64,000 nt of DNA from NCBI GenBank assembly GCA_963833555.1, contig CAWHYB010000002.1, positions 209,666 to 273,665 of the forward strand, in the 5' to 3' direction. The position numbers and the translations under genes were made by a program. Shown here piece after piece: positions 34,865 to 56,523 of the stretch. Every line of letters starts with the position of its first letter. Position 1 is the stretch's first letter. The notes under the pieces were generated by a model. That model was not told the origin of the DNA. It did not search any database and was given only the letters and a program-made list of their open reading frames with translations. This DNA is from an uncultured Actinomycetes bacterium. Its GTDB lineage: Bacteria > Actinomycetota > Thermoleophilia > UBA2241.

Positions 34865-35697
34865 CTACTTGTCGTACGGCGGCAGCTTGAGGATGCGGCG
34901 CGCCTCGTCGGGAGTGGCACAGTCCCTGTCCCACTCCTGCGCGAGGCGCGCCACGCGCGCCACGAGCTGGGCGTTGCTCGTCGGCCAGCACGCCCTTGTG
35001 GTAGAAGACGTTGTCCTCGAAGCCGAGGCGCACGTTGCCGCCCAGCGCGAGCGCCGTCATCGTGACCGGCATGTGCCAGCGGCCGATGCCGGTGCAGGTC
35101 CAGGTCGAGCCGTCGGGCAGCCGGTCGACCAGGAAGACGAGGTTGCGCGGCTCGCCGCTCATGCGAGCCCGGCACGCCGAGCACGAAGTCCCAGTGCAGT
35201 AAGCGGTCCGGCCGGACCGAACTTCTTGACCAGCTTGAGCGCGTTGTCGATCTGGCCGGCCTCGAAGATCTCGAACTCGGGACGCACGCCCGGCGGCCTT
35301 CTGGCGCTGGTAGAACTCGCTCATCAGCGCCGTGTCGTTGAAGAACACGTCGTCGCCGAAGTTCGCCGTGCCGGTCGTCAGCGAGGCCATCTCGGGCTTG
35401 AGCTCGAGCGGCTGCAGGCGCTCGTCGGCCGTCATGCCCATGGCGCCGCCGGTCGAGGTCTGGATGATGATGTCGGTGCGCTTGCGGATCTCTTCGATGG
35501 CCGCCGCGAACACCTCTCGTGCCTGCGTCGGGTTGCCGGCGGCGTCGCGCACGTGCAGGTGGTACATGCGAGGCGCCGGCCTCGCGGCAGCGGGCCGCGT
35601 CGGCGCCGATCTCCGCGGCGCTCACCGGCAGGGCCGGCTGCGCCTCCTTGGTCGTCTCGGCGCCGACGCCGGCGACGGTGATGATCAGCTTGTCCAT
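34865..35697 (-). pseudogene. kce: BKACE family enzyme (3-keto-5-aminohexanoate cleavage enzyme-like, DUF849); frameshifted
   Basis: MDKLIITVAGVGAETTK..., YHLHVRDAAGNP, IIIQTSTGGAMG, LKPEMASLTTGTANFGDDVFFN, GIGRWHMPVTMTALALGGNVRLGFEDNVFYHKGVLA and AQLVARVARLA match Kce signatures. They are split over frames 34693..35697 and 33762..35567. The length is not a multiple of 3. Confidence 0.75.
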
Positions 35698-35698
35698 G

Positions 35699-36987
35699 TC
35701 AGCCTCCTACTTCGTGCCAGGGATGGCTCTCGGCCACGTAGGCGAGCGCTCTCCTCGACCACGTCGAGGGCACGCGTCGAGGTCGTCTTCGGTGTGGCGG
35801 TAGGCGATGTACCAGTGGTGATACGGCTGCACGAACAGGCCGCGGCGGATGCACTGCGTGTAGAACTCGGTGCGGCGCTCCTTGTAGTGATCGTCGACGT
35901 GGTCGAAGGTGAGGAACGGCATCGGCGGGATGCCCGACTTGGTGACCGGCACGCCCGAGGCGTCGACGATCTGCGCCGAGACGCTCGAGGAAGCGCGTGC
36001 CGCGCTCCCAGATCGCGTCCTGCACCTTCTCGCGCTCGAGGATCTCGAGGCACTTCATGCTGGCCGCCATCTCGAGGCTGTTGGGGAAGTAGGTCGAGCT
36101 CAGGAAGGCGTCCTTGACGTAGACGCTCATGATCTCGCGCTTGCCGACCAGGGCGGCGATGGAGTAGCCGTTGGCCATCGCCTTGCCGACCGTGGTCAGG
36201 TCGGGCGTCACGCCGTAGCGCTCGCTGGCGCCGCCCATGGACACGCGAAAGCCGGTGCGGATCTCGTCGAAGGTGAGCACGGCGCCGTTCTTGTGCGCGA
36301 GCTCCTTGACCGCCTCGCAGGTAGCCGGGCGGCGGCGGCGATGATCGGCTTGGCCATGGGGTGGCCGACCGGGGTGATGATGACGCCGGCGACCTTGCCG
36401 GGGTTCTCGGCGAAGACGCGCTCGAGGTCCTCGATCTTGCCGTACTCGAACTCCTTGGTGAGCTCGCCAGACGGCCTGCGGCACGCCGCCGTGGTGCTCG
36501 ACGCACCAGTCGCCCCAGCCGTGGTAGCCGCAGCGGGCGATGACGTCGCGGCCGGTGTGCGGCGCGCATCGCGCGCACGGCGGCGTTGGTGGCGTCGGAG
36601 CCGGTCTTGACGAGGATCGTCTGCTCGCCGCAGGGCATGATGTCGGCGAGACGCTCCTCGAGCTCGTTCTGCAGCGGCTGCACGAGGCTGAAGCAGAAGC
36701 CCTTGTCCATCTGCGCCTTGGCGGCGTCGTTGATCTCGGGCTCGACGTAGCCGAGGATGATCGGCCCGTAGGCGCAGAGCATGTCGATGTACTCGTTGCC
36801 GTCGACGTCGAAGATGTGGCCGCCCTTGCCGTGGGTGATGAAGACCGGGTACTCGCCGACGACGAAGTTGTAGGGCCGGCGGATGCCGCCGACGCCGCCG
36901 GGCGTGAGCCGCTGGGCGTCGTCGAGCATCGACATGGACTTGGTGAGGGTGAGCGGCGGCGCGCTCTGACGCTGTCTTGGTGGTCAT
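35699..36987 (-). pseudogene. Class-III PLP aminotransferase / glutamate-1-semialdehyde aminomutase-like; several frameshifts
   Basis: LTPGGVGGIRRP...FITHGKGGHIFDVDGNEYIDMLCAYGPIILGY, VKTGSDATNAAVRAMRA, VAGVIITPV, LTFDEIRTGFRVSMGGASERYGVTPDLTTVGKAMANGYSIAALVG and FVQPYHHWYIAYRHTEDDLD are distributed over three frames. The stop at 35699 is adjacent to the kce ATG. Confidence 0.7.
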
Positions 36988-37104
36988 GATGGCTCCTTCG
37001 TTGCTGGAGATTGACTCGATTGTATGCGCTTCACACGCCGTGCGGCGCCGAGGCGATGAGCGCTTGGGCCGAACGTCGCCGGACCGTGACGACCGCGCGG
37101 CGGG

Positions 37105-38139
37105 TCAGCCCGGATCGGTAAGCTGACGGCAGAGCGCGGCGCGGCGGACTCCGTCGCGGTCGCCCCACCGGGCGTCGCCGCTCACGGCGTGGGCTCCAGC
37201 GACGCGTGACCTGGTCTTCGCGCTCCCCGAAGAGCACGACGAGCAGCGCCGGCGACGCACGATCAGGGCGCCGCCGACGATGGTCCAGCACCGAGATGCC
37301 CTGGCCCAGCAGCAGAAGCGCGTAGAGGGGCGCCGACACCGGCTCGAGGTAGCCCAGGATCGAGGCGTGCTGCACGCTGATCGCGGCCCACGCCCTCCGT
37401 CCACATGGTGTAGGCGAGGGCCGTGCAGACCACGCCGAGGATCGAGGCCGGCGACGAGGTCGCGGGTGCGTCAGCCGGTAGCCCGCGCCGACCGTCTGCC
37501 AGAGCGCCAGGGGCAGCAGGACGAGCGCGTCGCAGCCAGGCCTCGGTGAAGACGATCGTGACGCGCCGACGACGCGGCCGGTGAGGTCCTTGACGACGAG
37601 CTGGAAGACCGCGTAGCCGAGCGCCGGCCGCGAGGCCGGCGACCACGCCGCCGGTCGACAGCCTGACCCCCTCGCCCGAGCAGTGACGGCGCGAGGATCA
37701 CGGCCAGGCCGGCAAGGGCGAGCGCCAGGGCCGGGTAGACGATGCGGCTCGGTCCTGGCCTTGAAGATGCGCGGCGCCACCAGCGCGACCCAGACCGGCG
37801 CCAGGAACTGCAGGAACATGCCGATGGCGACGCTCGTGCTCGCGGATGGCGACGAAGAACAGCAGCAGGGTGAACGCGTCGACGAGGCCCATGACGAGCA
37901 GCCGCGGCCGGACGCCCGTGCCGCGGACGCCGGCCAGCGGCCGCCGGCGCGCGAAGAGCGACGCCGAGCACGAGGCCGGCGGTCACGAAGCGGATCACGA
38001 GCAGCGCGCTCTCGGGCGCGGTCGTCCAGGCGACGAGCGCGCCGATCGAGACCCATGATCAGGTACGACCCGGCGACCAGCAGGTAGCCCTGGCCGAGGT
38101 GAGGCGGCGGCGCGCGGCGAGACCGACGGCGCCGCTCAC
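37105..38139 (-). pseudogene. EamA/DMT family transporter, paralog d; several frameshifts, 3' end uncertain
   Basis: VAIGMFLQFLAPVWVALVAPRIF, ALGYAVFQLVVKDLTG, LLPLALWQTVGAGYRLT and ISVQHASILGYLEPVSAPLYALLLLGQGIS occur in alternating frames. The GTG start overlaps the stop of paralog c. Confidence 0.55.
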
Positions 38140-39084
38140 AACAGCGCCATCTCGGCCGATTGCTGCTCGGGCGCACCGAACACGACCACGAGGATGCCGG
38201 CGACGACGATGAGCGCGCCTCCGGCGAGCGTCGTCGCCGCCGTCGCCCTCGCCCAGCAGCAGCAGCGCATAGAGCGGCGCGCTGAGCGGCTCGAGGTAGC
38301 CCAGGATCGAGGCGTGCTCGACGCGGATGCGGCGGATGCCCTCGACGAAGATGACGTAGGGGACGGCGGTGCAGACCAGCGCCAGTACGAGCACCACGCC
38401 GAGATCGTGGGTGGTCAGCCGGAAGCCGGTGGCGGCCATCTGCCAGGCCGCCAGCGGCAGCAGGAAGACGACGTCGAGCACCATCTCGCTGAGGGCGATC
38501 GTGACGCTGCGGGTGGTGCGCGTCAGCGCCTTGGTCATGAGCGCGTAGCCGGCGTAGGTGAGACCGGTGGCCACGCCGCAGAGCGACGCCGAGGGTCGAG
38601 AGACGGTGCGCGCCGACGAGGCCGGGCAGCAGGATCACCGCCATGCCGGCGAGCGCCAGACCAAGGGCGGGATAGACGACCCGGTCCGGGCGCTGCCCGA
38701 GCAGGCGCGGCGCCAGCAGGGCCACGTAGACGGGCCCGGTGAACAGCAGGAACATGGCGATGGCGACGTCGGTCAGACGCAGGGCGATGAAGAAGAACAG
38801 CAGCGTCGTGGCGCTGAACGTGCCCATGATGAGCAAGCGGATCGACCACACGCCGGTCGCGCAGCTCGGCGAGCATCGCGCGGCCGCGCGAAGACGACGG
38901 CCACGACCGACGCGGCGATCGCCATGCGGGCCACGATGAGGGCGCTCTCGGGCATCGTCGTCATGCGCACCAGCACGCCGATCGAGCCCCAGACGAGGAA
39001 GCTCGCCGTGGCGAGGCCGTAGCCGAGGCGGTCGCGTCGCGGCGGCGCGACGGCGGCGCCTGCGGCGCCGTTCGCCGCCGCCAT
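38136..39084 (-). pseudogene. EamA/DMT family transporter, paralog c; several frameshifts
   Basis: MAAANGAAG...LATASFLVWGSIGVLVRMT, IRLLIMGTFSATTLLFFFIALRLTDVAIAMFLLFTGPVYVALLAPRLL, GLTYAGYALMTKAL and RVEHASILGYLEPLSAPLYALLLLGEG. My retranslated tail is TLAGGALIVVAGILVVVFGAPEQQSAEMALL, stop at 38136. Confidence 0.55.
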
Positions 39085-40031
39085 CAGGCGTCCGCCCTGT
39101 CGGGCAGCGCGCCGTCGGCCAGCGCCAGCGACGGCAGTTCGGGCTCGGCATCGGCGCTGCCGTAGCGCACCACGATCACGCCGGCGCCGATGATCAAGCG
39201 CGCCGCCGGCGATCGTCCACCACGACGGCACCTGGCGCAGGAACAGCAGCGCGTAGACGCGGCGCCGTCACCGGCTCGAGGTAGCCCATGATGGCGGAGT
39301 GCTGCACCTTGATGAAGTGCATGCCGTCCATGATCAGGCTGAAGGTCAAGGCTGTGCAGACGACGCCAAGGACCGCCGCGACGATGATGTTGCGGGGGGT
39401 GAAGTCGGAGGCCGACGACTGCGTCAGGCCGAGCGGCACGAGCAGCACCACGGCCATGGCGCACATGGCGAAGACGATGGTGGTGGCGTGCACCCCGCGG
39501 TGACGCAGCTGCTTGCCGCCGATGAGGTAGACCGAGTACATCGCGCCCGCGATCACGGCGAAGAACAGGCCGTAGGCGGTCAGCTGGAGGCCGTTGCCGG
39601 TGAGTCCGGGCACCAGGATCAGCGCCATGCCGCCGAGGCCGACCGCCAGGGCGACGTACACTGCCTTCTCCGTCCGGCCGCCTTCAAGGTAGGGCGCCAC
39701 GAACGCCACATACACGGGCGCAAGGTACGAGAGGAAGATGGCGATCGCCACACCGGTCTGGCGGATGGCGATGAAGTAGCTCAGCAGGTTGAGCGCCAGC
39801 GCGACGCCGCAGACCAGCAGGCGGATCGTGGTCCCCCGGTCGGCCACGAGCGCCTGCCAGTCGCGGCGCGCAGCCACGACGATACCCAGCGCCAGACCCG
39901 GCGAAGCACATGCGCAGTGCGACGAGCATGCTGGCCGACATCGTCGCGTAGGTGACCAGCGTGCCGATCGCGCCGTCGATGAGCCCGGCGGCGAGTGTCT
40001 CGGCGTAGCCGCGGGCGCGGCGCGCGTTCAC
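39084..40031 (-). pseudogene. EamA/DMT family transporter, paralog b; frameshifts near 39890 and 39190-39240
   Basis: The central 227 aa are intact in ORF 39194..39877 (IAIRQTGVAIAIFLSYLAPVYVAFVAP...VQHSAIMGYLEPVTAP). The N- and C-terminal parts are in other frames. The GTG start overlaps the stop of paralog a, and the stop overlaps the ATG of paralog c. Confidence 0.6.
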
Positions 40032-40951
40032 GCCGGCACCGTCTCTTCGGCTCTGCCCAGGGCGATCGCCACGGCGCCGGCGCCGATGATGAGCGCGCCG
40101 CCGAGCCAGGTCGACTGCGCTGGGTGCTCGCCGACCAGCAGCAGCGCCCACAGTGGCGCGGTCACCGGCTCGAGGTAGCCCAGCATGCCGGCGTGTTCGA
40201 TGCGCACGAAGCGGATGCCGTCGGTGAACAGACTGAAGCAGAGCGCCGTGTAGACGAGGCCCATCACCAGCACGATGCCGGCGTCGGGCCAGGTCGGCCG
40301 GTAGTCGCCCTGGACGGTCTGCCAGACCGCCAGCGGCGTCAGCAGGACCGTCGTGGCGGCGCAGTGGAACAGGGTGAAGGTCGTGCCGCTGATGTCGCGT
40401 CCGACGCTCTTGGTGAGCAGCAGCGCCGTCGCGTACAGCGCGCCGGCCACGACGCCGCAGGCGATGCCGGGGCCGAGGTGCTCGCCCCGCGCGGTCAGCC
40501 CAGGCACGATGATGAGCGCCATGCCGACGGCCGCGACGGCCACGGCGACCATGTCGATGCCCTGGCGGCGGGTGTGCAACACCCACGGAGCGACGAGGGC
40601 GATGTAGACCGGCGCCATGTACTCGAGGGCGATGCCGACGGCGACGTTGGCCAGCCGGATCGAGGCGAAGTAGAAGAGCAGCTCGAAGGCCACGACCACG
40701 CCGATGAGCACGAGCCGGCCGAAGCGGCCCGAGCGGCGTACCTCGTCGATGCCGCCGGTGAGCAGGAAGAGCACGCCCAGGACGACCCCTGCCAGAGCCA
40801 TGCGGCAGACCAGCAGCAGGCTGGCCGGCATGCTCGAAAGCTGCAGCAGCGCGCCCGAGGTGCCCAGGATCAGCGAGGCGACGCCGATCTCGGTGTAGCC
40901 GCGCAGGCGGCCCGAACCGAGCCTGAGCGCCGTCGCCTCGCTTGCCGACAC
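40028..40951 (-). CDS. EamA/DMT family transporter, paralog a (intact)
   Basis: 308 aa from the GTG at 40951, with GAGGGG 7 nt upstream. Ten hydrophobic segments. FYFASIRLANVAVGIALEYMAPVYIALVAP and RIEHAGMLGYLEPVTAPLWALLLVGE. Confidence 0.75.
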   Translation of the reverse strand: MSASEATALRLGSGRLRGYTEIGVASLILGTSGALLQLSSMPASLLLVCRMALAGVVLGVLFLLTGGIDEVRRSGRFGRLVLIGVVVAFELLFYFASIRLANVAVGIALEYMAPVYIALVAPWVLHTRRQGIDMVAVAVAAVGMALIIVPGLTARGEHLGPGIACGVVAGALYATALLLTKSVGRDISGTTFTLFHCAATTVLLTPLAVWQTVQGDYRPTWPDAGIVLVMGLVYTALCFSLFTDGIRFVRIEHAGMLGYLEPVTAPLWALLLVGEHPAQSTWLGGALIIGAGAVAIALGRAEETVPA

Positions 40952-49242: not shown

Positions 49243-50694
49243 CTACGACCCTGTCTCGGCCCGCTCGATGATCGCCTGGAGCTCGGCTGCGACGTCGTCG
49301 GCGAGCGGCGCCGGCCGATGGCCGGCGAGGATGTCGGCGGCAAGCTGCTGCGCCTTCTCGAAGGCGCCGGGCTTGCCGCCCTCGAGCCACGCGTCGTAGG
49401 ACGCGCGATCCCACACGGTCGGCCTCCAGATCTCCTTCATGTGCGCCCGCGTGTGCTTCTCGGCCAGGTAGGTGCCGTTCGGCCCCACGCGCGTGATCAC
49501 GTCGAGCGCGAGCTGCTCGTCGTCGACCACGATGCCCTGGGCCAGACGCTGCACGATGCGGTAGACCTCGGTCTCCATGACCAGATGCGGGTACGACAGC
49601 ATCTTGGAGCCGTCGAGCATGCCGGCGCCGCTCATCGTGTCGGCGCCGGCGAGCACCGAAGCGGCCGTCGAGAACGCGTCGTCGACGGCCGACTGCCAGC
49701 CCGGCTCCTTGGCGCCGGTGGCCATCGTGCCCATGTTGACCGGCAGGCCGAACGAGTGGGCGAGCTGCGTCGCGGCGGCGGCCAGGACGTAGTCCTCCGG
49801 GCCGCCGCCGGTATAGCCGCCGCTGCGCAGGTCCATGACGCTGGGCGCGCCGCCGAAGATCACCGGCGCGCCGGGCGAGGCGAGCTGCAGCAGCACGAGG
49901 TCGGCGATCACGCCGGCGGCATTGACGACGAGGTTGCCGGCGTAGGTGGCCGGCGCGGTGCCGCAGGCCATCGTCAGCGAGAGGAAGCCGCAGGGCAGGC
50001 CGGCCTCGGCGAAGACGAGGCCGGCCTCGAGACTCACCGCATCGTTGCCGAGCGGGTCGACCGGGCAGGCGATGAGCGACACGATGGGACGGCGCCGCAG
50101 CTCGTCGTGGCCGCCGCATGTCGCGGCAGCCATCTCGACGAGCAGTCGCGCCGCCCGCTCCCCAACCGTCGTGACGGCCTGGTAGTGCTTGCTCGTGTTG
50201 GCGAACACGGCCCGGGCCTCGTGCAACGCGCGCGTCGCCGGCGGCGCGTCGCCGGCGGCGACGATCGGCCCCCAGTAGAACGACACCTGGGGCAGCGCGT
50301 CGGCGAACCGCGCCGACTCGGCCACGTCGGCCAGCGTCGAGGGCCGCTTCTCGCCGCTGCGGGGGTCGACGACGAACACACCGCTGGCGTCGGTGGACAG
50401 GTAGCTGTGGCGGCCGTCGAGCGGCAGATCGCACGCAGGGTCGCGTCCGCACAGGCTGAACTCGCGCGGCGCCTGTGCCAGCGCCCCCTCGACGACGTTC
50501 CGAGGCAGCCGCGCGGTCTCGTGAACGCGGTCGACCGCGCACCCGCCGGCCTCGAGTACGTCGAGCGCGCGCGCCAGCGGGAACCGCACGCCGGCCTCGG
50601 CGAGCACAGTGAACACGCCTTCACGAACGCAGTCCAGTTGGGACGGCGTCAGGACGTCCCACGAGCTACGGCGAACAATCGGATCGACCCTCAT
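49243..50694 (-). CDS. MttB-superfamily methyltransferase, paralog 4 (intact, no in-frame UAG)
   Basis: 484 aa from MRVDPIVRRSSWDVL. Close paralog of 47198..48670, sharing NTSKHYQAVTTVG, AGNLVVNAAG...GAPSVMDLRSGGY and GPNGTYLAEKHTRAHMKEIWRPTVWDR. Confidence 0.8.
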   Translation of the reverse strand: MRVDPIVRRSSWDVLTPSQLDCVREGVFTVLAEAGVRFPLARALDVLEAGGCAVDRVHETARLPRNVVEGALAQAPREFSLCGRDPACDLPLDGRHSYLSTDASGVFVVDPRSGEKRPSTLADVAESARFADALPQVSFYWGPIVAAGDAPPATRALHEARAVFANTSKHYQAVTTVGERAARLLVEMAAATCGGHDELRRRPIVSLIACPVDPLGNDAVSLEAGLVFAEAGLPCGFLSLTMACGTAPATYAGNLVVNAAGVIADLVLLQLASPGAPVIFGGAPSVMDLRSGGYTGGGPEDYVLAAAATQLAHSFGLPVNMGTMATGAKEPGWQSAVDDAFSTAASVLAGADTMSGAGMLDGSKMLSYPHLVMETEVYRIVQRLAQGIVVDDEQLALDVITRVGPNGTYLAEKHTRAHMKEIWRPTVWDRASYDAWLEGGKPGAFEKAQQLAADILAGHRPAPLADDVAAELQAIIERAETGS

Positions 50695-50785
50695 CGCGCG
50701 GAGTCTACACCGGGCTCGCGAGGGTCGCCTCCCAAGTGCGACGCCCGCCGCGATCCCCATCCTCGCGCGGATCCGCAACGAAAGA

Positions 50786-50841: not shown

Positions 50842-51832
50842 TCAAGTGTCGTCGGAGAGCCAGGTATTGGCGTCGGGCATCTGCGGCGCGGTCCCAGGCA
50901 ATGGGATCTTGTCTGAGGCCAGCGTCGTGCCGTCGCCGGCCGACATGTCGGCCTCAGGACGCTCGCCGGTCCGCACGTCGACGATCTCGACTCCGGGCGT
51001 GATGCCGAGCTCGGCCGCGTGCTGTGGTTCCTTCTCGGGCAGGATATGCCGCAGGAACTGTTGCGTGCGCGCGTCCTTCGGGTGAAAGAAGACCTCGCTG
51101 GGCGGGCCTTCTTCGATGAAGTAGCCGTCGTCCATATACACCACGCGGTCGGCGACGTCGCGGGCGAAACCCATCTCGTGGCTCACCACGATCATCGTCA
51201 TGCCGCCTTCGGCGAGCTCCTTCATGACCCGAAGCACCTCGCCGATCAGCTCGGGGTCGAGGGCGCTCGTCGGCTCGTCGAAGAGCATCAACACCGGCTC
51301 CATCGCCATGGCGCGGGCGATCGCGACACGCTGCTTCTGGCCGCCCGACAACTGGCTGGGGAAGAAGTCCATGCGGTCACCCAGGCCCACCTTGGTCGAG
51401 CAGCTCGTGGGCCTTCCTGGTGGCCTCGTCCTTCTTCTCGCCGCGCACGAGTATCGGACCCTCGATGACGTTCTCGGTGGCGTCCTTGTGGGGGAACAGG
51501 TTGAACTCCTGGAACACCATGCCGCATTTCATGCGGATGTCGTGGACCGCGTGCTTGAACCCGCCGCCGTGGCTGCCGCACGTCACGTGCACGCCGCCGA
51601 TCGAGATCTCGCCGGTGGTGGGATCCTCGAGGAAGTTGAGACAGCGCAGGAACGTGCTCTTGCCGGAGCCCGAGGGGCCGATGAGGACGATCACCTCGCC
51701 GCTGCGAACCTCGAGGTCGACGCCCTTGAGCACGTGGTTTCTGCCGAAGTACTTCTGCAGCCCCTCGACCTTGACGATGAGTTCGCGCTCGCCGAGCGGA
51801 GTCTTGGTGACATCTTCAGAGATCGTCGCCAC
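50842..51832 (-). pseudogene. Polar amino acid ABC transporter ATP-binding protein (GlnQ/ArtP-like) with a C-terminal extension; one frameshift near 51390
   Basis: Walker [13 protein letters not shown]-loop [12 protein letters not shown], signature [14 protein letters not shown], Walker [13 protein letters not shown] and H-loop VVSHEM. The N-terminal part is in frame 51377..52111 and the C-terminal part in 50842..51390. A GTG start at 51832 follows GGAGAGGAGG. Confidence 0.75.
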
Positions 51833-51834: not shown

Positions 51835-52587
51835 CTACCTCCTCTCCTTCTCTCTCGCCTTGTCGCGCGCCATGCGGTTCTCGAGCCTGGCCTGCCAGAA
51901 CGAGAAGAAGATGGTGAGGACCCAGTAGAACGCCGCCGCCACCAGCAGGGTCGAGAAGTTGTTCATCGGTACGACGAGCCGGCGAGCTGCGCACGTCGCA
52001 ACAGCTCCTCAACAGTGATAGTCGAGACCAGAGACGTGTCCTTGATGAGGGCGATGAAGTCGTTGCCGATGGCCGGGATGACGATCTTGAAGGCCTGCGG
52101 CAGGATGACACGGCGCTGAGTCTGCCAGCCGCTCAGGCCGATCGCCCACGCGGCTTCCTGCTGGCCCTTTGGGACCGCCTGGATGCCCGCCCGGAAGACC
52201 TCGGTCAGGTACGCGCCGTAGTTGAGCGAGAGCGCGGCGACGCCGGTCACGAAGGCGCTCGGGCTGGGGCAGCCCGTGAAGGAACGAGACCCTGTTGATG
52301 ACCTCCGGCGCGGCCAGGTAGATCACCATGATCTGCAGCAGCAGCGGGGTCCCCCGGAACAGCGAGGTGTAGAAGGTCGCGAGCCAGTAGGGGATGCGGC
52401 CCAGCGTCATGCGGGCCATGTAGCCCCAGCTCTGGTAGCGGTCCCAGGCCTGCTTGTAGCTCATCGTCTTGCTGAGCCGGCCAAGTGAGCCGAACAGGGC
52501 GAAGATGCAGGCGAACACCATCGAGAGGATAGTCAGTTCGACGGTGATGATGCCGCCCCGGGCGATGTAGGTCCACCACTGCTTCAT
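51835..52587 (-). pseudogene. Amino acid ABC transporter permease (HisM/GlnP-like); two frameshifts (about 52255 and 51965)
   Basis: MKQWWTYIARGGIITVELTI...YTSLFRGTPLLLQIMVIYL is in frame 52009..52671. LNYGAYLTEVFRAGIQAVPKGQQEAAWAIGLSGWQTQRRVILPQAFKIVIPAIGNDFIALIKDTSLVS is in frame 51963..52250. My translation of the tail is [29 protein letters not shown], with a TAG at 51835-51837. Confidence 0.7.
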
Positions 52588-53045
52588 CACCTGGACGACT
52601 GATGAGGCTGTCACCGCTGCCGGCGACGCCCGTCGAGTCGAACTGCCAGGTCTTGGTGGCCCTTGCCCCATCCTTGGTCTCCAGGGTGACCTCGAAGGAA
52701 TGCTTGCCGGGACTCACCGTCGGTGAGGTCGCCCAGTCGAGCGGGAACTGGAGCCTGGCCACGGTACTGGATCACCGGCGGCTGCCGGCGTCGATGATCT
52801 GGCCGTCGATGTTGAGCTGCACTTGGCGGGTCGACCGGCTGCGACCCCGTCCTTGTAATTGACCAGACGGAACCGCCGTTCCAGGCGTCTGCCGGTCCGG
52901 CCGCCGGGGATGGTCCCGTGCACGTGACGCGGCGGCCTCGGCCTTCCCGCCGCCAGGACGACGCCCGTCGTCAGCGCCGCAGGTCGAGGCCCCGAGAGCG
53001 CGGCCGAACAGCGTGGTACCGCGAACAGCTTACGTGGTCTGCGTC
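52587..53045 (-). pseudogene. Small hypothetical (lipo)protein, beta-sandwich-like; frameshifted, boundaries uncertain
   Basis: Protein-like text VQLNIDGQIIDAGS / ARLQFPLDWATSPTVSPGKHSFEVTLETKDGARATKTWQFDSTG occurs in different frames. GGAAAGGAAG lies upstream near 53050. A TGA overlaps the permease ATG. Confidence 0.3.
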
Positions 53046-53080
53046 GTCTTCCTTTCCTCAGAACCTCGGGTCGGGGGTCG

Positions 53081-53109: not shown

Positions 53110-54073
53110 GGCCACCACGGTATCGGTACGTTCAGGCCCAGGGCGGACTGGAAAGGGCCGCTCGAAGTCTCCGGGAACGTGATCCTGACTACTGAACGTC
53201 AGGTCGAAGCCGTTGTACCAGTGCTTCGACATGGTGGTGAGCTGGCCATCGGAATGCATCTTGTTGATGGCGTAGTTAAGAGCGTGAGTCATGTCCTGCG
53301 ACTCGGCGGTGCGTGTCGCGAATGCCAGCGTCTCGTAGTATAGCGGCTTGCCGGTGAACTCGAAGGGCTAGCCCTGACGAGGATCGCCTGCTGCTCGGTC
53401 GGCCGGCCGACATGACGTCGTCGAGCTTGCCGTTCTGGAGGTCCGGGAAGGCGTCGGGTCGGTCGCGTAGGTGTACGACGCTTGATCTGCGGGTACTTCT
53501 TCAGGAACGTGGTAGTAGGTGGTGTCGGCGCCCACGCCGACCTTCTTGCCGAGGAGGTGCCTTCACGCCGGTGATCTCGTGCCGCCCTTCCTCATCATTA
53601 CCTGCCCCGAGGTGTAGTAGTACGGGTCGGTGAAGGCGACGGACTTCTTGCGGTCTGGGTGATCGTCATCGAGCCGATCGAGACGTCCCAGCGCTTGGTC
53701 TTCAGGCCGGCCGGGATCGTCGGTCCCAGTTCGGGTTCACGAACTTGATCGGGACACCGAGGATCTTGCCGGTGGCGTTGGCGACGTCGACGTCGAAGCC
53801 GACGAGCTGCTTGGTGACCTTGTCGACTGAACTCTGCGGCGCGTAGTTGGCGTCATTGGCCACGACGAGCTGGTTGGCCGTCAGGACCTCCTGGGCCAGA
53901 CCGGTGGGCGCGTGACCCAGGATCTTCTGCCACACCTGCGCAGTGGTCTGTGTGCCGGGGCTGCTGCTCGCACTCGTGCCGCTGTTCGAACTCCCGCAGC
54001 CGGCGACGAGCACGACGGCGAGGAGTGCCACCAGGACGAGAGCGACCAGGGGCGCCCACTTGCGTTGGCTCAT
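53096..54073 (-). pseudogene. Amino acid ABC transporter substrate-binding lipoprotein (family 3), copy 1; many frameshifts
   Basis: MSQRKWAPLVALVLVALLAVVLVAGCGSS (lipobox), LVVANDANYAPQSSVDKVTKQLVGFDVDVANATGKILGVPIKFVNPNWD, then KRWDVSIGSMTIT and MTHALNYAINKMHSDGQLTTMSKHWYNGFDLT in other frames. GGAAAGGAAGG lies before the ATG at 54073. Confidence 0.6.
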
Positions 54074-54247: not shown

Positions 54248-54299
54248 CCGGCTGCACGCACGCTCGGTTGCGCACTGCGGGGCGGGGGCGGGTCGCGCA

Positions 54300-55193
54300 T
54301 CACGGCGCATAGAGCGCCAGTCCCGCCGCCGGGGCCTTCGAGAGGTCATGACCCCCGTACCACTTGGCCGAGATCCTCGCCAGGCTGCCGTCGCCGCGCA
54401 TGCTCGCGATGGCATGATCGAACAAGGCGGACAGATCCGTCTGTCCCATCGCCGTGGCGAAGCCCAGCGGCTCGTAGAAGAAGGGACCGCCGATGGCCAG
54501 GGACTCGCCGCTCGCGATCGCGCTCCAGGCGTTCGCCTGGTCGGTCATCACGGCGCCGATCTTGCCTGCGTTCAGGTCGGCGATCGCCCCGCTGATGTCG
54601 CCGTACGACACCACGGAGACGCCGCCGATCTTCTGCAGCCAGCGTTCGAAGACACTCTGGGCGACCGCGCCCACTGTACTGCCCTGGAGCTGTGTGACAC
54701 TCGCAGGCGGGCTGGCCGCCGAAGGCACGAGCACCACGGCCTGCTGATAGGCGTAGGGCGCGCCGAAGGAGAGTGCGTTCCGCGCGCTCTTGGTGATCGG
54801 CAGCGAGTCGATCGCGACGTCGCACGTCCCATCGGCCAGCGTACGGGCGACGGTGTCCCAGGCGGGGATGACGAACTCGACCTTGAGGCCGAGGATCGCG
54901 CCCACGCGGCGGGCGACGTCGATATTGAAGCCGACGAGCTGCTTGCTCGAGGGGTCGAGCGAGCTCTGTGGCGGGAACGCCCCATCGACCGCCACGATCA
55001 GCGTCTTCTTCTGGACGACGGCGGCCGCAGTGCCCGTGGGGGCGTGGCCCAGGATAGCACGCGCAGTGGCGGCGGGGTCGGTGGCGGCGCCGCCGGCCCC
55101 GCCGCCACAGCCGCCCACGATCAGGATGGCGACCGCCGCCAGCGCCACGGCGACTGCCGCGAGGCACGCGGGCGGATGGCGTCTAGAAGCCAA
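54300..55193 (-). CDS. Amino acid ABC transporter substrate-binding lipoprotein (family 3), copy 2 (intact)
   Basis: 298 aa from a TTG at 55193. Lipobox ILIVGGCGGG. LIVAVDGAFPPQSSLDPSSKQLVGFNIDVARRVGAILGLKVEFVIPAWD is parallel to copy 1. Ends AKWYGGHDL. Confidence 0.7.
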   Translation of the reverse strand: MASRRHPPACLAAVAVALAAVAILIVGGCGGGAGGAATDPAATARAILGHAPTGTAAAVVQKKTLIVAVDGAFPPQSSLDPSSKQLVGFNIDVARRVGAILGLKVEFVIPAWDTVARTLADGTCDVAIDSLPITKSARNALSFGAPYAYQQAVVLVPSAASPPASVTQLQGSTVGAVAQSVFERWLQKIGGVSVVSYGDISGAIADLNAGKIGAVMTDQANAWSAIASGESLAIGGPFFYEPLGFATAMGQTDLSALFDHAIASMRGDGSLARISAKWYGGHDLSKAPAAGLALYAP

Positions 55194-56523
55194 CCGTCTC
55201 GCCGGCGACGAGCTGCCGCAGCTCGGCGTCGAGATCGGGGGCGAGAGGTGGAGGGATGTGCGTCGCCAGCAGCTCGCGCGCGAGGCTGCGCGCGGCCTCG
55301 CGCGCCCCGCCCGCGGCGTCGCCGGGCAAGAGACTCTGCGCCGCCGCACGAACTGCCTGGGGCGGCGTCATATCGGACGCGACGCCGGTGGCGGCGGCGG
55401 CTCTCGCCGCCGCCGCCACCTCGGTCCCGAGCATGAGTTCGTCGAACGAGAAGATCCGGCCGCCCGCGACCATGCCCACACCGGTCAGCATGTCGACGCC
55501 GGCCAGCATCGACAGCCAGGTCGTGGTGACATCGTCGACAAGGGTCTGCCAGCCCGGCAGCTTGGCGGCCGAGGCGTTCACGCCACACATCGTCGGAAGT
55601 CCATAGTAGGCGCCGATGTCGCCGACGGCCGCGCCCATGAGCGTGTCTTCGGGAGCCCCGCCGGAGAAATCGCCGGTGCGCAGGTCCATGACGCTCGGGA
55701 TGAAGCAGATGAAGACCGGCGCGCCCGGATGCGCCGCCTCGATGGCGCAGACGCCCGAGAGCGACTCGGCGATCCCCACCACCAGCGAGCCGGCCATCGT
55801 GATCGGTGTCGTCGAACCGCCCTGCGGCATGGTCACGAAGCCGATCGGCACCCCGGCGGCGGCGAACACGAGCCCCGCTTCGAGGGTGCCCTCGTCGTGA
55901 CCGAGCGGTGTGATCGTGCCGAGCAGAGCGGAGATGGGCGAGGCGCGGCGCACAGCCTGGCCGCCGCCGGCGATGGCGCGGGCCATCTCGACCGCGACCT
56001 GGGCCTGGGCCTTATCGACGATGGTCACCGTCTGGACGTGCTTGCCCGTGTTGGCGAGTACCTCGTAGATCTCGTAGAGGCCGCGCCGCTCGACCGGCCG
56101 GTCCTGCGCGCTCACGGTCGTCCAGCAGAAGTCCACGTCGTCGAGCGCATCGACGACGCGGGTGATGGCAGCCACGTCGGCGGCCGTCGTCGGCCGCTTT
56201 GCGCCGCTGTCGAGATCGTAGATGTCGGTGGGGCAACCGTCGGTGGTGAGCAGCGAGGTCTCGCCGGTCACCAGGGTGCGATTGGCGCGAGCTCCGAGCG
56301 TCATGCGAGCCGGAGCGAGCGCTACCAGATGGCGGACGACGTCAGGCGGGATGCGCACGGTGTGGCCGTCGATATGAGCACCGGCGGCGGCGAGCGCCTC
56401 GCGCGCCGCCGCCGAGGGCATCGCCACGCCGGTCGTGGCGAGCACGTGCAGCGCCGCCGCGTCGAGCCTGTCAAGGTCGCCCAGGGTGAGGATCTCTATA
56501 CGTCCAGCCAGCCTGGGGAGCAT
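55183..56523 (-). CDS. MttB-superfamily methyltransferase, paralog 5 (intact, no in-frame UAG)
   Basis: 447 aa from MLPRLAGRIEIL. NTGKHVQTVTIV, MAGSLVVGIAESLSGVCAIEAAHPGAPVFICFIPSVMDLRTGDFSGGAPE and DMLTGVGMVAGG. The stop overlaps the start of the binding-protein gene. Confidence 0.75.
   Translation of the reverse strand: MLPRLAGRIEILTLGDLDRLDAAALHVLATTGVAMPSAAAREALAAAGAHIDGHTVRIPPDVVRHLVALAPARMTLGARANRTLVTGETSLLTTDGCPTDIYDLDSGAKRPTTAADVAAITRVVDALDDVDFCWTTVSAQDRPVERRGLYEIYEVLANTGKHVQTVTIVDKAQAQVAVEMARAIAGGGQAVRRASPISALLGTITPLGHDEGTLEAGLVFAAAGVPIGFVTMPQGGSTTPITMAGSLVVGIAESLSGVCAIEAAHPGAPVFICFIPSVMDLRTGDFSGGAPEDTLMGAAVGDIGAYYGLPTMCGVNASAAKLPGWQTLVDDVTTTWLSMLAGVDMLTGVGMVAGGRIFSFDELMLGTEVAAAARAAAATGVASDMTPPQAVRAAAQSLLPGDAAGGAREAARSLARELLATHIPPPLAPDLDAELRQLVAGETVGF

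What the first reader, a model, noticed from the sequence alone, without database searches (positions are those of the whole stretch)
34865..56523. Co-directional island of about 21.7 kb joining MttB-family methyltransferases to a KamA / aminotransferase / BKACE module and amino-acid-type transporters
All genes from 56523 down to 34865 are on the minus strand. Many have overlapping or near-abutting stop/start codons. The order is: MttB paralog 5, two family-3 binding proteins, a small lipoprotein, permease and ATPase of a polar-amino-acid ABC system, MttB paralog 4, an orphan ORF, MttB paralogs 3, 2 and 1, KamA, a RamA/RACo-type corrinoid activase, four EamA transporters, a class-III aminotransferase and a Kce-like BKACE enzyme. 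Characterised non-Pyl MttB homologs (MtgB, MtpB, MtcB, MtyB) demethylate quaternary amines. Characterised KamA and Kce belong to lysine fermentation. I do not know of a described system that links the two. My hypothesis is a pathway for a methylated basic amino acid or beta-amino acid, such as N-methylated lysine. It would be imported by the PAAT-type ABC system, demethylated stepwise by several MttB paralogs, and the carbon skeleton then processed via beta-lysine.
Basis: partly seen in the sequence, partly recalled or inferred. Interest (0 to 1): 0.8.

Follow-up and report, generated by a model that had tools for sequence, protein, structure and literature searches.

The report
MttB methyltransferase–lysine fermentation gene island
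An uncultured wetland/soil actinobacterial lineage (Thermoleophilia) keeps several uncharacterised cobalamin-dependent N-methyltransferase genes in one conserved operon-like cluster with three lysine-fermentation enzymes and transporters, which suggests, but does not prove, an undescribed anaerobic pathway for methylated lysine.

Summary
The island is real. About 20 co-directional minus-strand genes (34.9–56.6 kb) encode five non-pyrrolysine MttB paralogues, a polar-amino-acid ABC system, lysine 2,3-aminomutase (KamA), a RACo/RamA activase, four EamA transporters, a class-III aminotransferase and a BKACE.

In this sequence about half of these genes are broken by single-base insertions. Similar frame-switching occurs outside the island, so these are most likely assembly errors.

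The core order MttB(n)–KamA–RamA–EamA(n)–aminotransferase–BKACE is kept in 31 of 34 fully covered related loci, all from Thermoleophilia/Actinomycetota MAGs.

The reading can be sharpened:
- KamA is canonical.
- The aminotransferase is Kat-like (3-aminobutyryl-CoA transaminase).
- The BKACE is Kce-like.
- So this is part of the known Kat variant of lysine fermentation, but KamDE and Kdd are absent from every locus.

All MttB paralogues lack the substrate-binding residues of MtgB, including the Arg reported as conserved in every characterised member. The corrinoid protein and the second methyltransferase are not in the cluster.

No paper was found that links these modules. Methyl-lysine catabolism is the most economical hypothesis and remains untested. 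I rate it a new variant of known kinds, of moderate to high interest.

The parts
55183..56649 (-). MttB paralogue 5, a non-Pyl MttB-superfamily methyltransferase. Intact; the true start is probably between 56445 and 56649.
   Evidence: PF06253 at 211 bits. It is 78% identical to the L007 orthologue over 55201-56445. MtgB motif positions read G/Q/A/G.
54300..55349 (-). Family-3 solute-binding protein 1 of the PAAT-type ABC system. Intact ORF; the start is probably downstream of 55349.
   Evidence: SBP_bac_3 at 91 bits. The best NCBIfam match is the lysine/arginine/ornithine binding-protein subfamily, below its cutoff.
53194..54001 (-). Family-3 solute-binding protein 2, split over three frames.
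   Evidence: The L005 binding protein aligns in frames -1, -3 and -2. There is a partial SBP_bac_3 hit.
51853..52593 (-). ABC permease (HEQRo/PAAT type), with two frame changes.
   Evidence: The L005 permease aligns in frames -2, -3 and -2. NCBIfam was run on the L005 orthologue.
50842..51660 (-). ABC ATPase, split near 51390.
   Evidence: ABC_tran positions 1-89 fall in one ORF and 90-137 in another frame. tblastn confirms the split.
49243..50778 (-). MttB paralogue 4 (MttB3/4-type group). Intact; ends in TAG.
   Evidence: PF06253 at 310 bits. PDB matches: 7XCL at 225 bits and MtgB at 218 bits. Motif positions read A/N/S/S, with Ala at the Pyl position.
48832..49239 (-). 135-aa ORF of unknown function. 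It is in the same frame as MttB4 across MttB4's TAG stop and has no homologue in the 74 related loci.
   Evidence: GC3 is 0.94. No Pfam or NCBIfam hit. No tblastn hit in L001-L074. Frame continuity shown.
47198..48670 (-). MttB paralogue 3, the most conserved MttB type in the island family. Intact.
   Evidence: PF06253 at 313 bits. Orthologues at 74-89% identity occur in at least 28 of 34 islands. Motif positions read G/A/N/S, with Ala at the Pyl position.
45736..47166 (-). MttB paralogue 2 (MttB2-type group). Intact.
   Evidence: PF06253 at 245 bits. The group is present in at least 25 of 34 islands, with motif S/F/H/G.
44364..45743 (-). MttB paralogue 1, a divergent type. It has two frame changes, near 45319-45330 and 44832-44846.
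   Evidence: Partial PF06253 hit in two stretches. The L004 and L005 orthologues align in frames -3, -1 and -3. One insertion and one deletion were located.
42931..44236 (-). KamA, lysine 2,3-aminomutase, broken by one inserted base at about 43328, just after the codon for Asp293.
   Evidence: Radical_SAM and LAM_C fall in different frames. The insertion was located. The corrected protein scores 538 bits to 2A5H, with CxxxCxxC, K337, D293 and D330 conserved. The L007 orthologue passes TIGR03820.
40977..42800 (-). RACo/RamA-type ATP-dependent reductive activase of corrinoid proteins, with an N-terminal 2Fe-2S domain. Intact.
   Evidence: Fer2 + RACo_linker + Raco_middle + RACo_C_ter. Below the NCBIfam cutoffs for AcsV and RamA.
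40028..40950 (-). EamA/DMT transporter 1. Intact.
   Evidence: EamA, two repeats. 72% identical to L007 EamA1.
39194..40022 (-). EamA/DMT transporter 2, with frame changes near its 3' end.
   Evidence: EamA hit. tblastn shows frames -3, -1 and -2.
38151..39039 (-). EamA/DMT transporter 3, with several frame changes.
   Evidence: tblastn with L005 and L007 EamA3 shows frames -2, -3, -1 and -2.
37220..38112 (-). EamA/DMT transporter 4, with several frame changes.
   Evidence: tblastn with L007 EamA4. Partial EamA hit inside the 706-aa ORF.
35716..36999 (-). HemL-like class-III aminotransferase, Kat-like (probably a 3-aminobutyryl-CoA transaminase). Carries eight single-base insertions.
   Evidence: Aminotran_3 matches only positions 9-111 in the window ORF. 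The intact L007 orthologue is 423 aa. Insertions were mapped. Homologues at ~69-70% identity sit in Kdd-AT-Kce-KamDE operons.
34865..35697 (-). [quoted passage not shown] Carries five single-base insertions.
   Evidence: BKACE matches only positions 1-42 in the window ORF. The L007 orthologue has a full BKACE hit at 323 bits. It scores 382.4 on NF052387 against a cutoff of 382. It scores 270 bits to 2Y7D with catalytic residues conserved. It is 48% identical to the characterised Kce.
32497..34550 (-). GAF-GGDEF-HD protein. A conserved flanking gene, frameshifted here.
   Evidence: Pfam on the L007 orthologue. tblastn shows frames -3, -1 and -2. It follows the island in 30 of 34 loci and is present in L014, which has no island.
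56606..57256 (-). YbaK/ProX-type aminoacyl-tRNA editing-domain protein at the upstream flank. Not seen at this position in L082.
   Evidence: tRNA_edit at 97.6 bits. L082 context.

Best explanation
This is an operon-like catabolic island, found here only in anaerobic Thermoleophilia/Actinomycetota MAGs. It sits at a fixed chromosomal site near oriC: sortase/MoeA, then the island, then GGDEF/UPF0182.

**What the sequence shows**
- It joins 2-5 non-pyrrolysine MttB-superfamily methyltransferases of uncharacterised specificity to a RACo/RamA-type reductive activase.
- It adds three enzymes of the Kat variant of lysine fermentation: KamA (lysine 2,3-aminomutase), a Kce-like BKACE and a Kat-like aminotransferase.
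- It also carries uptake systems: a PAAT-type ABC transporter and 1-7 EamA transporters.

**Inferred mechanism**
1. An N-methylated lysine, or a closely related N-methylated diamino acid, is imported.
2. The MttB paralogues pass its methyl groups to a Co(I) corrinoid protein. That protein is encoded elsewhere, for example at the second RamA locus that carries corrinoid proteins. RamA keeps it reduced.
3. The methyl groups go on to tetrahydrofolate through a methyltransferase encoded elsewhere.
4. The freed lysine is converted by KamA to beta-lysine.
5. After the KamDE and Kdd steps, which would have to be supplied in trans, Kce splits 3-keto-5-aminohexanoate with acetyl-CoA into acetoacetate and 3-aminobutyryl-CoA.
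6. [quoted passage not shown]

The gene identities and the conserved linkage are shown. The substrate, the in-trans partners and the coupling of the two halves are inferred.
For: **Gene identities**.

**Conserved order**: 31 of 34 full-flank loci carry all four core components, across RamA identities of 58-91%. Genes are tightly packed or overlapping in intact relatives.

**KamA**: it passes the lysine 2,3-aminomutase equivalog. It keeps both Asp residues that bind the lysine epsilon-ammonium, so it should see free lysine. That fits demethylation coming first.

**Aminotransferase and BKACE**
- The aminotransferase clade sits in classical Kdd-AT-Kce-KamDE operons at ~69-70% identity. Kat biochemistry is described in PMC3149608.
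- The BKACE is closer to the characterised Kce (48%) than an operon-validated Kce is (42%).

**MttB paralogues**
- All 119 MttB homologues lack MtgB Y97/R312/H348/F356. The MtgB paper states that R312 is conserved in all characterised members, whose substrates are acidic quaternary amines (PMC13080624).
- The substrate is therefore bound differently from all known members.

**Supporting context**
- The binding proteins are most similar to the lysine/arginine/ornithine and cystine types.
- An alanine-racemase-fold gene lies inside the island in five loci.
- Corrinoid proteins are present at a second RamA locus, in some cases in the same MAG as an island locus.
- A Stordalen Mire study names genus Bog-752 among the most actively methylotrophic bacteria. 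The nearest relatives include isolate bog_752 (PMC10805028).
Against: - No KamD, KamE or Kdd occurs in the window or in any of the 74 loci. The lysine route is therefore incomplete as encoded.
- Whether those genes exist elsewhere in these genomes could not be established.
- The corrinoid protein is inside the island in only 2 of 34 loci, and no second methyltransferase was seen.
- L060 keeps KamA-RamA-EamA-BKACE without any MttB gene, and L014 keeps RamA alone. RamA may therefore be an ancestral anchor gene around which unrelated genes accumulated.
- All island loci come from one lineage, so conserved order may partly reflect descent rather than selection.
- Characterised non-Pyl MttB enzymes remove only one methyl group, and only from quaternary amines. 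Stepwise removal down to a primary amine has no precedent (my own knowledge).
- No substrate was tested.
Confidence: 0.4

Rival explanations
1. There are two functionally independent modules that merely share an operon or chromosomal site. One is a set of MttB methyltransferases plus RamA for assorted methylated amines. The other is a partial lysine-fermentation set (KamA, Kce, Kat) for free lysine. The transporters serve one or the other. There is no shared substrate.
For: - RamA occupies this site even where nothing else of the island is present (L014). L060 has the lysine genes without MttB.
- MttB and EamA copy numbers vary widely, 0-5 and 1-7, as expected for an accretion site.
- Some islands also carry unrelated methylamine genes, such as a pyrrolysine-type mtbB and a corrinoid protein.
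- Kat, Kce and KamA are fully explained by the known lysine pathway.
Against: - 33 of 34 islands have both MttB and lysine genes.
- KamA sits on the MttB side of RamA while Kat and Kce sit on the other side. The two sets are therefore interleaved, not juxtaposed.
- Gene spacing is operon-like.
- The lysine module is just as incomplete under this reading.
Confidence: 0.3
2. The island encodes a self-contained bypass that needs no KamDE or Kdd.
1. KamA makes beta-lysine, or an N6-methylated beta-lysine.
2. The HemL-like aminotransferase removes the 3-amino group directly, giving 3-keto-6-(methyl)aminohexanoate.
3. The BKACE cleaves that with acetyl-CoA to acetoacetate and a 4-(methyl)aminobutyryl-CoA, for example gamma-butyrobetainyl-CoA.
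4. The MttB paralogues demethylate the methylated amine before or after these steps.

I recall a formally similar route in Pseudomonas B4: N6-acetyl-beta-lysine transaminase followed by 3-keto-6-acetamidohexanoate cleavage. This is from memory and was not checked here.
For: - It explains why KamDE and Kdd are missing from all 34 islands, so the cluster is complete as encoded.
- HemL-like enzymes include beta-amino-acid transaminases (discussed in PMC3149608).
- An N6-blocked amine would prevent cyclisation of the 6-amino-3-keto acid and of 4-aminobutyryl-CoA (chemical reasoning, my own knowledge).
- L007 and L073 add a 3-hydroxyacyl dehydrogenase whose other matches include carnitine dehydrogenases, directly before the BKACE.
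Against: - The aminotransferase is ~70% identical to those in classical operons. The characterised Kat did not accept free beta-amino acids, only thioesters (PMC3149608).
- The BKACE reaches the Kce equivalog cutoff and shares Kce motifs around the catalytic Glu.
- KamA keeps the canonical epsilon-ammonium pocket, which argues against a bulky trimethylammonium substrate.
Confidence: 0.15
3. In this particular genome the island is a decaying remnant. The frameshifts are real mutations, so KamA, Kat, Kce, MttB1, three EamA genes and the ABC system are pseudogenes.
For: - At least 20 frame changes lie within the island.
- The insertions are not in homopolymers, unlike the usual nanopore error pattern.
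- They are patchy: RamA and MttB2-5 are clean.
Against: - The events in the aminotransferase, BKACE and KamA are all single-base insertions. The frame-corrected KamA has no internal stop, no large deletion was seen, nucleotide identity to intact orthologues is about 90%, and GC3 stays above 0.9.
- Equally dense frame switching hits the Hdr/Mvh-like energy genes and other genes outside the island.
- Other long-read contigs of this lineage fragment the same genes at other positions.
Confidence: 0.1

Closest known systems
Kat variant of the lysine fermentation pathway (kamA, kamDE, kdd, kce, kat; 'Candidatus Cloacamonas acidaminovorans', Perret et al. 2011, PMC3149608), and the Kdd-AT-Kce-KamD-KamE operons of loci L075-L079
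   Same: KamA is canonical and passes the lysine 2,3-aminomutase equivalog. The BKACE is Kce-like: it sits at the equivalog cutoff, is 48% identical to the crystallised Kce and keeps the catalytic residues. The aminotransferase belongs to the same HemL-like clade, ~69-70% identical to the operon copies.
   Different: No beta-lysine 5,6-aminomutase (KamDE), no reactivase-like genes and no Kdd occur in the window or any of the 74 related loci. KamA is separated from Kat and Kce by RamA and several EamA transporters. MttB genes are present. The aminotransferase was not compared directly with the characterised Kat sequence.
Non-pyrrolysine MttB-superfamily quaternary-amine methyltransferase systems: MtgB/MtgC/MtgA of Desulfitobacterium hafniense, and MtpB, MtcB, MtyB and MthB of Eubacterium limosum
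   Same: PF06253 fold family, no pyrrolysine codon, and association with a reductive activase of corrinoid proteins. As I recall, methyltransferase genes in E. limosum can also be unlinked from the shared corrinoid protein.
   Different: All paralogues lack the MtgB residues Y97, R312, H348 and F356. R312 is reported as conserved in all characterised members (PMC13080624). They are about as distant from MtgB (233 bits) as from the Pyl-type MttB (248 bits). The corrinoid protein and second methyltransferase are not adjacent. Up to five paralogues sit in tandem beside amino-acid catabolic genes.
Pyrrolysine-dependent methylamine methyltransferase clusters with RamA (MttB/MttC and MtbB/MtbC of methanogens and some bacteria)
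   Same: The same superfamily for MttB and the same logic of activase plus methyltransferases. Some related islands carry an mtbB-like gene with an in-frame TAG at their edge. The motif around the MtgB H348 position resembles Pyl-type MttB (GAGML) more than MtgB.
   Different: The window's MttB3 and MttB4 have Ala at the pyrrolysine position. The activase has a RACo-like N-terminal 2Fe-2S domain. As I recall, methanogen RamA instead has C-terminal 4Fe-4S clusters; this was not checked here.
Carnitine catabolism: carnitine dehydrogenase plus a dehydrocarnitine-cleaving BKACE
   Same: A BKACE linked to quaternary-amine metabolism. L007 and L073 have a 3-hydroxyacyl-dehydrogenase-type gene directly upstream of the BKACE, with sub-threshold matches to carnitine dehydrogenase models.
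   Different: That dehydrogenase is absent from the window and from most islands. Its best match is a 3-hydroxyacyl-CoA dehydrogenase model, which also fits reduction of the Kat product acetoacetyl-CoA. The BKACE scores as Kce.

Membership tests
MttB superfamily (PF06253) | Sequence match to the MTTB TIM-barrel family above the curated threshold | tested here: met
   The five window paralogues score 128-313 bits against a cutoff of 25. Paralogue 1 is partial because of frameshifts.
Pyrrolysine-type TMA methyltransferase MttB | In-frame UAG (pyrrolysine) at the active-site position | tested here: not met
   There is no in-frame stop. MttB3 and MttB4 have Ala at the column aligned to Pyl of 7XCL, and all paralogue groups have ordinary residues there. 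All score below the TIGR02369 cutoff.
Characterised non-Pyl quaternary-amine methyltransferases (MtgB, MtpB, MtcB, MtyB, MthB) | Arg312 (MtgB numbering) binding the substrate acid group, plus an aromatic pair (Y97, F356) for the quaternary nitrogen | tested here: not met
   0 of 119 homologues have R312. The four motif positions read G/A/N/S, A/N/S/S, S/F/H/G, -/A/A/G and G/Q/A/G in the five groups. The motif comes from PMC13080624. This is alignment-based at about 30% identity; the R312 column lies next to the conserved FYG(V/L)P motif.
Characterised non-Pyl quaternary-amine methyltransferases (MtgB, MtpB, MtcB, MtyB, MthB) | Phylogenetic placement inside one of the characterised clades | not tested
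   Only MtgB and M. barkeri MttB sequences were available, taken from PDB alignments. MtpB, MtcB, MtyB and MthB sequences could not be obtained with these tools.
Three-component corrinoid methyltransferase system | A cognate corrinoid-binding protein (B12-binding domain with DxHxxG) encoded with the methyltransferase | tested here: not met
   tblastn with the L044 corrinoid protein finds nothing in the window. It finds a copy in only 2 of 34 islands. Corrinoid proteins are present at a second RamA locus (L008, L009, L010, L012, L052, L059).
Three-component corrinoid methyltransferase system | A methylcobalamin:THF (or CoM) methyltransferase (MT2) encoded with it | tested here: inconclusive
   No such gene was recognised among the island genes or the unlabelled conserved ORFs. 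The rest of the window was only read by eye from translations.
Three-component corrinoid methyltransferase system | An ATP-dependent reductive activase (RamA/RACo, ASKHA fold) | tested here: met
   Fer2 + RACo_linker + Raco_middle + RACo_C_ter, intact. Scores fall below the NCBIfam AcsV and RamA cutoffs.
Lysine 2,3-aminomutase (KamA/AblA) | Equivalog-level match, CxxxCxxC cluster motif, the PLP lysine, and Asp293/Asp330 that bind the epsilon-ammonium | tested here: met
   L007 scores 582 on TIGR03820 against a cutoff of 525. The frame-corrected window protein scores 538 bits to 2A5H with all of these residues conserved. The window copy carries one inserted base.
Lysine fermentation pathway (Kat variant) | Beta-lysine 5,6-aminomutase (KamD/KamE) and 3,5-diaminohexanoate dehydrogenase (Kdd) | tested here: not met
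   No tblastn hit in the window or in L001-L074. Their presence elsewhere in these genomes could not be tested.
Lysine fermentation pathway (Kat variant) | Kce: a BKACE with Zn ligands and catalytic residues, at equivalog level | tested here: met
   NF052387 scores 382.4 against a cutoff of 382, which is borderline. It scores 270 bits to 2Y7D. H46, H48, E230, E14, S82, E143, R226 and D231 are conserved. It is 48% identical to the characterised Kce.
Lysine fermentation pathway (Kat variant) | Kat: a HemL-like class-III aminotransferase acting on 3-aminobutyryl-CoA | tested here: inconclusive
   It is HemL-like and ~69-70% identical to aminotransferases encoded in Kdd-AT-Kce-KamDE operons. No direct comparison with the characterised Kat sequence was possible, and activity cannot be tested here.

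The most novel reading that the evidence does not exclude
The MttB3/4-type and MttB2-type proteins would be the first corrinoid-dependent demethylases of N-methylated lysine, or of another methylated diamino acid. Together with RamA they would feed methyl groups to one-carbon metabolism, while the same operon ferments the lysine skeleton. A further possibility is that the Kat-like and Kce-like enzymes act directly on (N6-methyl) beta-lysine derivatives. That would make a KamDE/Kdd-independent route. Either way it would be a new anaerobic sink for protein-derived methyl-lysines in wetlands and a new substrate class for the MttB superfamily.
Probability: 0.25. Interest if true: 0.8.

Novelty: new variant of a known kind. 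Interest (0 to 1): 0.6.

Why it matters
**Substrate range.** Non-pyrrolysine MttB proteins are very numerous in genomes. According to the 2026 MtgB paper, only five substrates are known: glycine betaine, proline betaine, carnitine, gamma-butyrobetaine and phosphocholine (PMC13080624). The paralogues here lack the residue that paper reports as conserved in all of them. They are locked to lysine-catabolic genes in dozens of species, which gives a concrete and testable lead to a new substrate class.

**Ecology.** A Stordalen Mire study lists genus Bog-752 among the most actively methylotrophic bacteria (PMC10805028). The nearest relatives found here include isolate bog_752. Such bacteria could compete with methylotrophic methanogens for methylated amines, so the substrate bears on wetland methane budgets.

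**Pathway biochemistry.** KamDE and Kdd are consistently absent from the cluster. It therefore becomes a direct question whether these organisms complete lysine fermentation in trans or use an undescribed shortcut.

**Practical warning.** A gene caller run on this contig will miss or truncate about half of the island.

Tried and rejected
- **Source contig.** Looking up the window's own proteins to recover the source contig and its annotation failed twice. Only the contig length, 759,312 bp, emerged.
- **RNA elements.** Rfam and tRNA scans found no riboswitch or other RNA element in the island. The only hits were tRNA-Asp and tRNA-Val, elsewhere in the window.
- **KamD elsewhere in Thermoleophilia.** The 120 listed hits (at least 70% identity) carry only Acidobacteriota, Spirochaetota and Firmicutes names. 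Amino-acid composition did not discriminate high-GC sources. The result is inconclusive.
- **AT-BKACE fusion.** An apparent fusion protein (P0097) looked like evidence for coupling. It lies in an error-prone contig with duplicated AT and BKACE copies, so I do not use it.
- **MttB3 outside the lineage.** The search returned only the same group at 60% identity or more. The two contexts I inspected were one further island and a methyltransferase-rich fragment without lysine genes in view, so there was no independent test.
- **Transporter specificity.** All matches fall below the curated cutoffs, so no substrate can be read from them.
- **Orphan ORF.** It has no family hit and no homologue in the related loci.
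- **Literature.** Searches combining MttB with aminomutase, trimethyllysine or methyllysine found nothing relevant.
- **Pyrrolysine biosynthesis.** I considered and rejected a link to it. PylB is not a KamA-family enzyme (my own knowledge), and KamA here is canonical.
- **KamDE replaced by MttB/RamA.** I also rejected the idea that MttB and RamA replace KamDE. The chemistries differ: methyl-Co(III)/Co(I) transfer versus an adenosylcobalamin radical mechanism.
- **Structure prediction.** Not used, because the tool returns no coordinates for pocket analysis.

Full report
**1. What is in the window**

The window is about 70% G+C, so long spurious ORFs are common. I therefore called genes by third-position GC and a seven-state frame model. 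Between about 33.2 and 57.1 kb, every coding segment lies on the minus strand. The one exception is a short, probably spurious plus-strand call at 52599-52842.

| Gene | Window coordinates |
|---|---|
| MttB paralogues 5, 4, 3, 2, 1 | 55183-56649, 49243-50778, 47198-48670, 45736-47166, 44364-45743 |
| Family-3 binding proteins | 54300-55349 and about 53194-54001 |
| ABC permease and ATPase | about 50842-52593 |
| KamA | 42931-44236 |
| RACo/RamA-type activase (Fer2 + RACo_linker + Raco_middle + RACo_C_ter) | 40977-42800 |
| Four EamA transporters | about 37220-40950 |
| Class-III aminotransferase | about 35716-36999 |
| BKACE | 34865-35697 |

I could not verify the 'small lipoprotein'. The 135-aa 'orphan' (48832-49239) has a strong coding signal, but no family match and no homologue in the 74 related loci.

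**2. The sequence is damaged**

Several genes match only part of their family model, or are split over frames:
- The ABC ATPase is split in two.
- KamA's radical-SAM and LAM_C parts fall in different frames.
- The window's aminotransferase ORF matches only positions 9-111 of 403.
- The BKACE ORF matches only positions 1-42 of 274.

Alignment with intact orthologues from related loci shows frame changes in ten genes. These are KamA, MttB1, binding protein 2, the permease, the ATPase, EamA2-4, the aminotransferase and BKACE.

At nucleotide level the changes are single-base insertions. There are eight in the aminotransferase, five in BKACE and one in KamA, directly after the codon for Asp293. MttB1 has one insertion and one deletion. 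The RamA and MttB3 controls have none.

I read these as assembly or sequencing errors rather than gene decay, for four reasons:
- The surrounding sequence is about 90% identical to intact orthologues, and GC3 stays above 0.9.
- The frame-corrected KamA has no internal stop, and I saw no large deletion.
- Equally dense frame switching occurs outside the island, for example 18 frame segments in the Hdr/Mvh-like block at 9.4-16.3 kb.
- Other long-read contigs of the same lineage fragment the same genes at other places.

I could not prove this. The insertions are not in homopolymers, and they are patchy.

**3. Conservation of the gene order**

A scan of one genome per species with the RamA protein returned 74 loci. 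Nearly all come from Thermoleophilia/Actinomycetota MAGs of peat, soil, sediment and digesters. The nearest are 77-80% identical. In the closest relatives (L004-L007, L073) the genes are intact, have GC3 of 0.91 or more, and abut or overlap.

A census by tblastn, which tolerates frameshifts, covered the 42 loci with at least 9 kb on both sides of RamA:
- 34 carry the island.
- 31 of those 34 carry MttB, KamA, the aminotransferase and BKACE together, in the same order around RamA.
- MttB copy number ranges from 0 to 5, and EamA from 1 to 7.
- The MttB3/4 type is present in at least 28 of 34 islands, and the MttB2 type in at least 25.

The island sits at a fixed chromosomal site: DnaA, then TPK/YuaJ, MoeA, sortase, the island, GGDEF, UPF0182.

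Reduced forms exist. L060 has a binding protein, a racemase-fold gene, KamA, RamA, one EamA and BKACE, but no MttB and no aminotransferase. L014 has only a binding protein and RamA.

Some islands carry optional extras:
- An ABC system.
- An alanine-racemase-fold gene (five loci).
- A 3-hydroxyacyl-dehydrogenase-type gene before BKACE (L007, L073).
- At the 5' edge, an mtbB-like gene with an in-frame TAG, and a corrinoid protein in 2 of 34 islands.

The eight non-island RamA loci include five with one or two corrinoid proteins, and three of those also have mtbB. By contig names, some belong to the same MAG as an island locus, for example L008 with L024, L009 with L040, and L012 with L061.

**4. 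The lysine part is three steps of a known pathway**

*KamA.* The L007 orthologue passes NCBI's lysine 2,3-aminomutase equivalog, scoring 582 against a cutoff of 525. The frame-corrected window protein scores 538 bits to the *Clostridium subterminale* enzyme (2A5H). It keeps the CxxxCxxC motif, the PLP lysine and both Asp residues that hold the lysine epsilon-ammonium. The assignment of those residues rests on my own knowledge of that structure. KamA should therefore act on lysine itself.

*Aminotransferase.* It is HemL-like. Perret et al. showed that the HemL-like enzyme of the variant lysine-fermentation pathway is Kat. Kat is a 3-aminobutyryl-CoA transaminase that needs a thioester substrate (PMC3149608). 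Homologues ~69-70% identical to the island enzyme, from other phyla, lie in operons ordered Kdd, aminotransferase, BKACE, a 297-aa protein, a MutS_V-like protein, KamD, KamE.

*BKACE.* It reaches the Kce equivalog cutoff, scoring 382.4 against 382. It scores 270 bits to the crystallised Kce and keeps the zinc ligands and catalytic residues. At 48% identity it is closer to that enzyme than the operon-validated Kce of L075 is, at 42%.

*The gap.* No KamD, KamE or Kdd is encoded in the window or in any of the 74 loci. Whether they lie elsewhere in these genomes could not be determined.

**5. The MttB part is uncharacterised**

MttB3 is about equally distant from the pyrrolysine-type MttB of *Methanosarcina barkeri* (248 bits) and from MtgB (233 bits). 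It has Ala at the pyrrolysine position.

The 2026 MtgB structure paper defines four substrate-binding residues. Y97 and F356 form the cation-pi pair, and R312 and H348 bind the carboxylate. The paper states that R312 is conserved among all members of known function (PMC13080624).

I aligned 119 MttB homologues from the loci, four window paralogues, MtgB and MttB. None of the island proteins has R312 or the aromatic pair. The four positions read G/A/N/S or A/N/S/S (MttB3/4 type), S/F/H/G (MttB2 type), -/A/A/G (MttB1 type) and G/Q/A/G (MttB5 type).

This is alignment-based at about 30% identity, but the R312 column lies beside the conserved FYG(V/L)P motif. Sequences of MtpB, MtcB, MtyB and MthB were not available, so no full phylogeny was made.

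The cognate corrinoid protein and the second methyltransferase are not part of the conserved island. The transporters give no specific substrate. The binding proteins are nearest to the lysine/arginine/ornithine and cystine types, and the EamA proteins to the generic carboxylate/amino-acid/amine model. All fall below the curated cutoffs.

**6. How it most likely works**

*Shown.* This is a conserved, tightly packed, co-directional cluster. It joins novel MttB subfamilies and their activase to KamA, a Kce-like BKACE and a Kat-like aminotransferase, plus uptake systems.

*Inferred.* One methylated, lysine-derived substrate is imported and demethylated by the MttB paralogues. The methyl acceptor is a corrinoid protein supplied in trans and kept active by RamA. 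The resulting lysine then goes through beta-lysine to acetoacetate and acetoacetyl-CoA, with KamDE and Kdd supplied in trans. I give this about 0.4.

*Rivals:*
- Two independent modules that share a site (0.3). The reduced forms L060 and L014 and the variable copy numbers favour this. The interleaving of the two gene sets and their near-universal co-occurrence count against it.
- A self-contained bypass (0.15). Here the aminotransferase and BKACE act directly on beta-lysine or N6-methyl-beta-lysine derivatives. This explains the missing KamDE and Kdd. The close similarity of both enzymes to Kat and Kce counts against it.
- Real pseudogenisation in this genome (0.1).

**7. Comparison with what is known, and novelty**

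Each part belongs to a known family, and the lysine enzymes belong to a described pathway variant. Three things were not found described:
- The combination of these modules. Three searches pairing MttB or corrinoid terms with aminomutase or methyl-lysine terms returned nothing relevant.
- MttB subfamilies that lack the conserved Arg.
- The consistent absence of KamDE and Kdd.

A Stordalen Mire multi-omics paper names genus Bog-752 among the most actively methylotrophic bacteria. It also reports Actinobacteriota expressing pyrrolysine-type mttB and mtbB (PMC10805028). Locus L002 is isolate bog_752. Which phylum the paper assigns to each named genus is ambiguous in its wording.

I file the finding as a new variant of known kinds, with interest 0.6.

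Noticed in passing
window 4098-6439, 9450-16322, 32000-39260, 42932-45749, 50848-54352: Patches of dense frame switching, roughly one change per 100-500 nt, alternate with clean stretches (16.6-31.9 kb, 39.3-42.8 kb, 45.7-50.6 kb). Where mapped at nucleotide level, the changes are single-base insertions outside homopolymers. Any automatic gene call on this contig will be badly fragmented.
   Followed up: partly
window 9450-16322 (+): A block that, read by eye from the frame-resolved translation, looks like a heterodisulfide-reductase/MvhD-type electron-bifurcating complex. It appears to contain HdrC/B-like, HdrA-like, MvhD-like and FAD/NAD oxidoreductase subunits. It is heavily frameshifted and was not checked against family models.
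   Followed up: no
window 62391-63878 (+); composition profile around 58-60 kb: DnaA is encoded at the right end of the window, and cumulative GC skew peaks near 56-58 kb. The island therefore lies close to the replication origin. The same DnaA/TPK/MoeA/sortase neighbourhood flanks the island site in L014, L060 and L082.
   Followed up: partly
window 48832-49245 (-): The 135-aa orphan ORF is in the same reading frame as MttB4. Only MttB4's TAG stop and one Gly codon precede its GTG start. The coding signal runs right up to the TAG. Relatives have no such extension, and their MttB4 stops are either TGA or TAG. It could be a coupled small gene, a read-through extension or coincidence.
   Followed up: partly
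L033 1874-3298, L035 1835-3232, L036 1967-3241, L043 1030-2418, L044 1589-2992: Five more distant island loci carry, at their 5' edge, a 350-aa ORF continued in frame after a TAG by about 90-116 further codons. By eye it resembles dimethylamine methyltransferase MtbB, so it is probably a pyrrolysine-encoding gene in Thermoleophilia. It is followed by a roughly 180-aa flavodoxin-like ORF. No family scan was run on it.
   Followed up: partly
L008, L009, L010, L012, L052, L059 (around 10001-11770): A second RamA paralogue, about 63% identical to the island one, sits in a different context with one or two corrinoid proteins and, in three loci, mtbB. By contig names, some belong to the same MAG as an island locus. 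This is the likely source of the corrinoid partner.
   Followed up: partly
L022, L030, L039, L055 (between MttB genes, opposite strand) and L060 6792-7850 (-): A gene with an alanine-racemase N-terminal domain lies inside the island in five loci. This would fit a lysine or ornithine racemase and the amino-acid theme. It is absent from the window.
   Followed up: partly
L007 17054-18022, L073 12722-13741: Two close relatives have an extra 3-hydroxyacyl-CoA-dehydrogenase-type gene between the aminotransferase and BKACE. Its best NCBIfam match is PRK06129, with weaker matches to carnitine dehydrogenase models. All are below cutoff. It is absent from the window.
   Followed up: partly
L081 8675-12938: One contig shows aminotransferase, a BKACE-aminotransferase 'fusion' ORF, and BKACE in a row, alongside fragmented GAF/GGDEF and EamA genes. 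This looks like an assembly artefact or a local duplication. It is not a genuine fusion protein.
   Followed up: partly
window 19040-19116 (-), 22331-22405 (-): tRNA-Asp(GTC) and tRNA-Val(TAC) are the only RNA genes found. No riboswitch was found anywhere in the window.
   Followed up: yes
window 16626-18856 (-), 22994-26601 (-), 26846-28036 (-): There are large secreted repeat proteins and a run of pseudopilin-like genes with N-terminal hydrophobic segments. They were read by eye only and are unrelated to the island.
   Followed up: no
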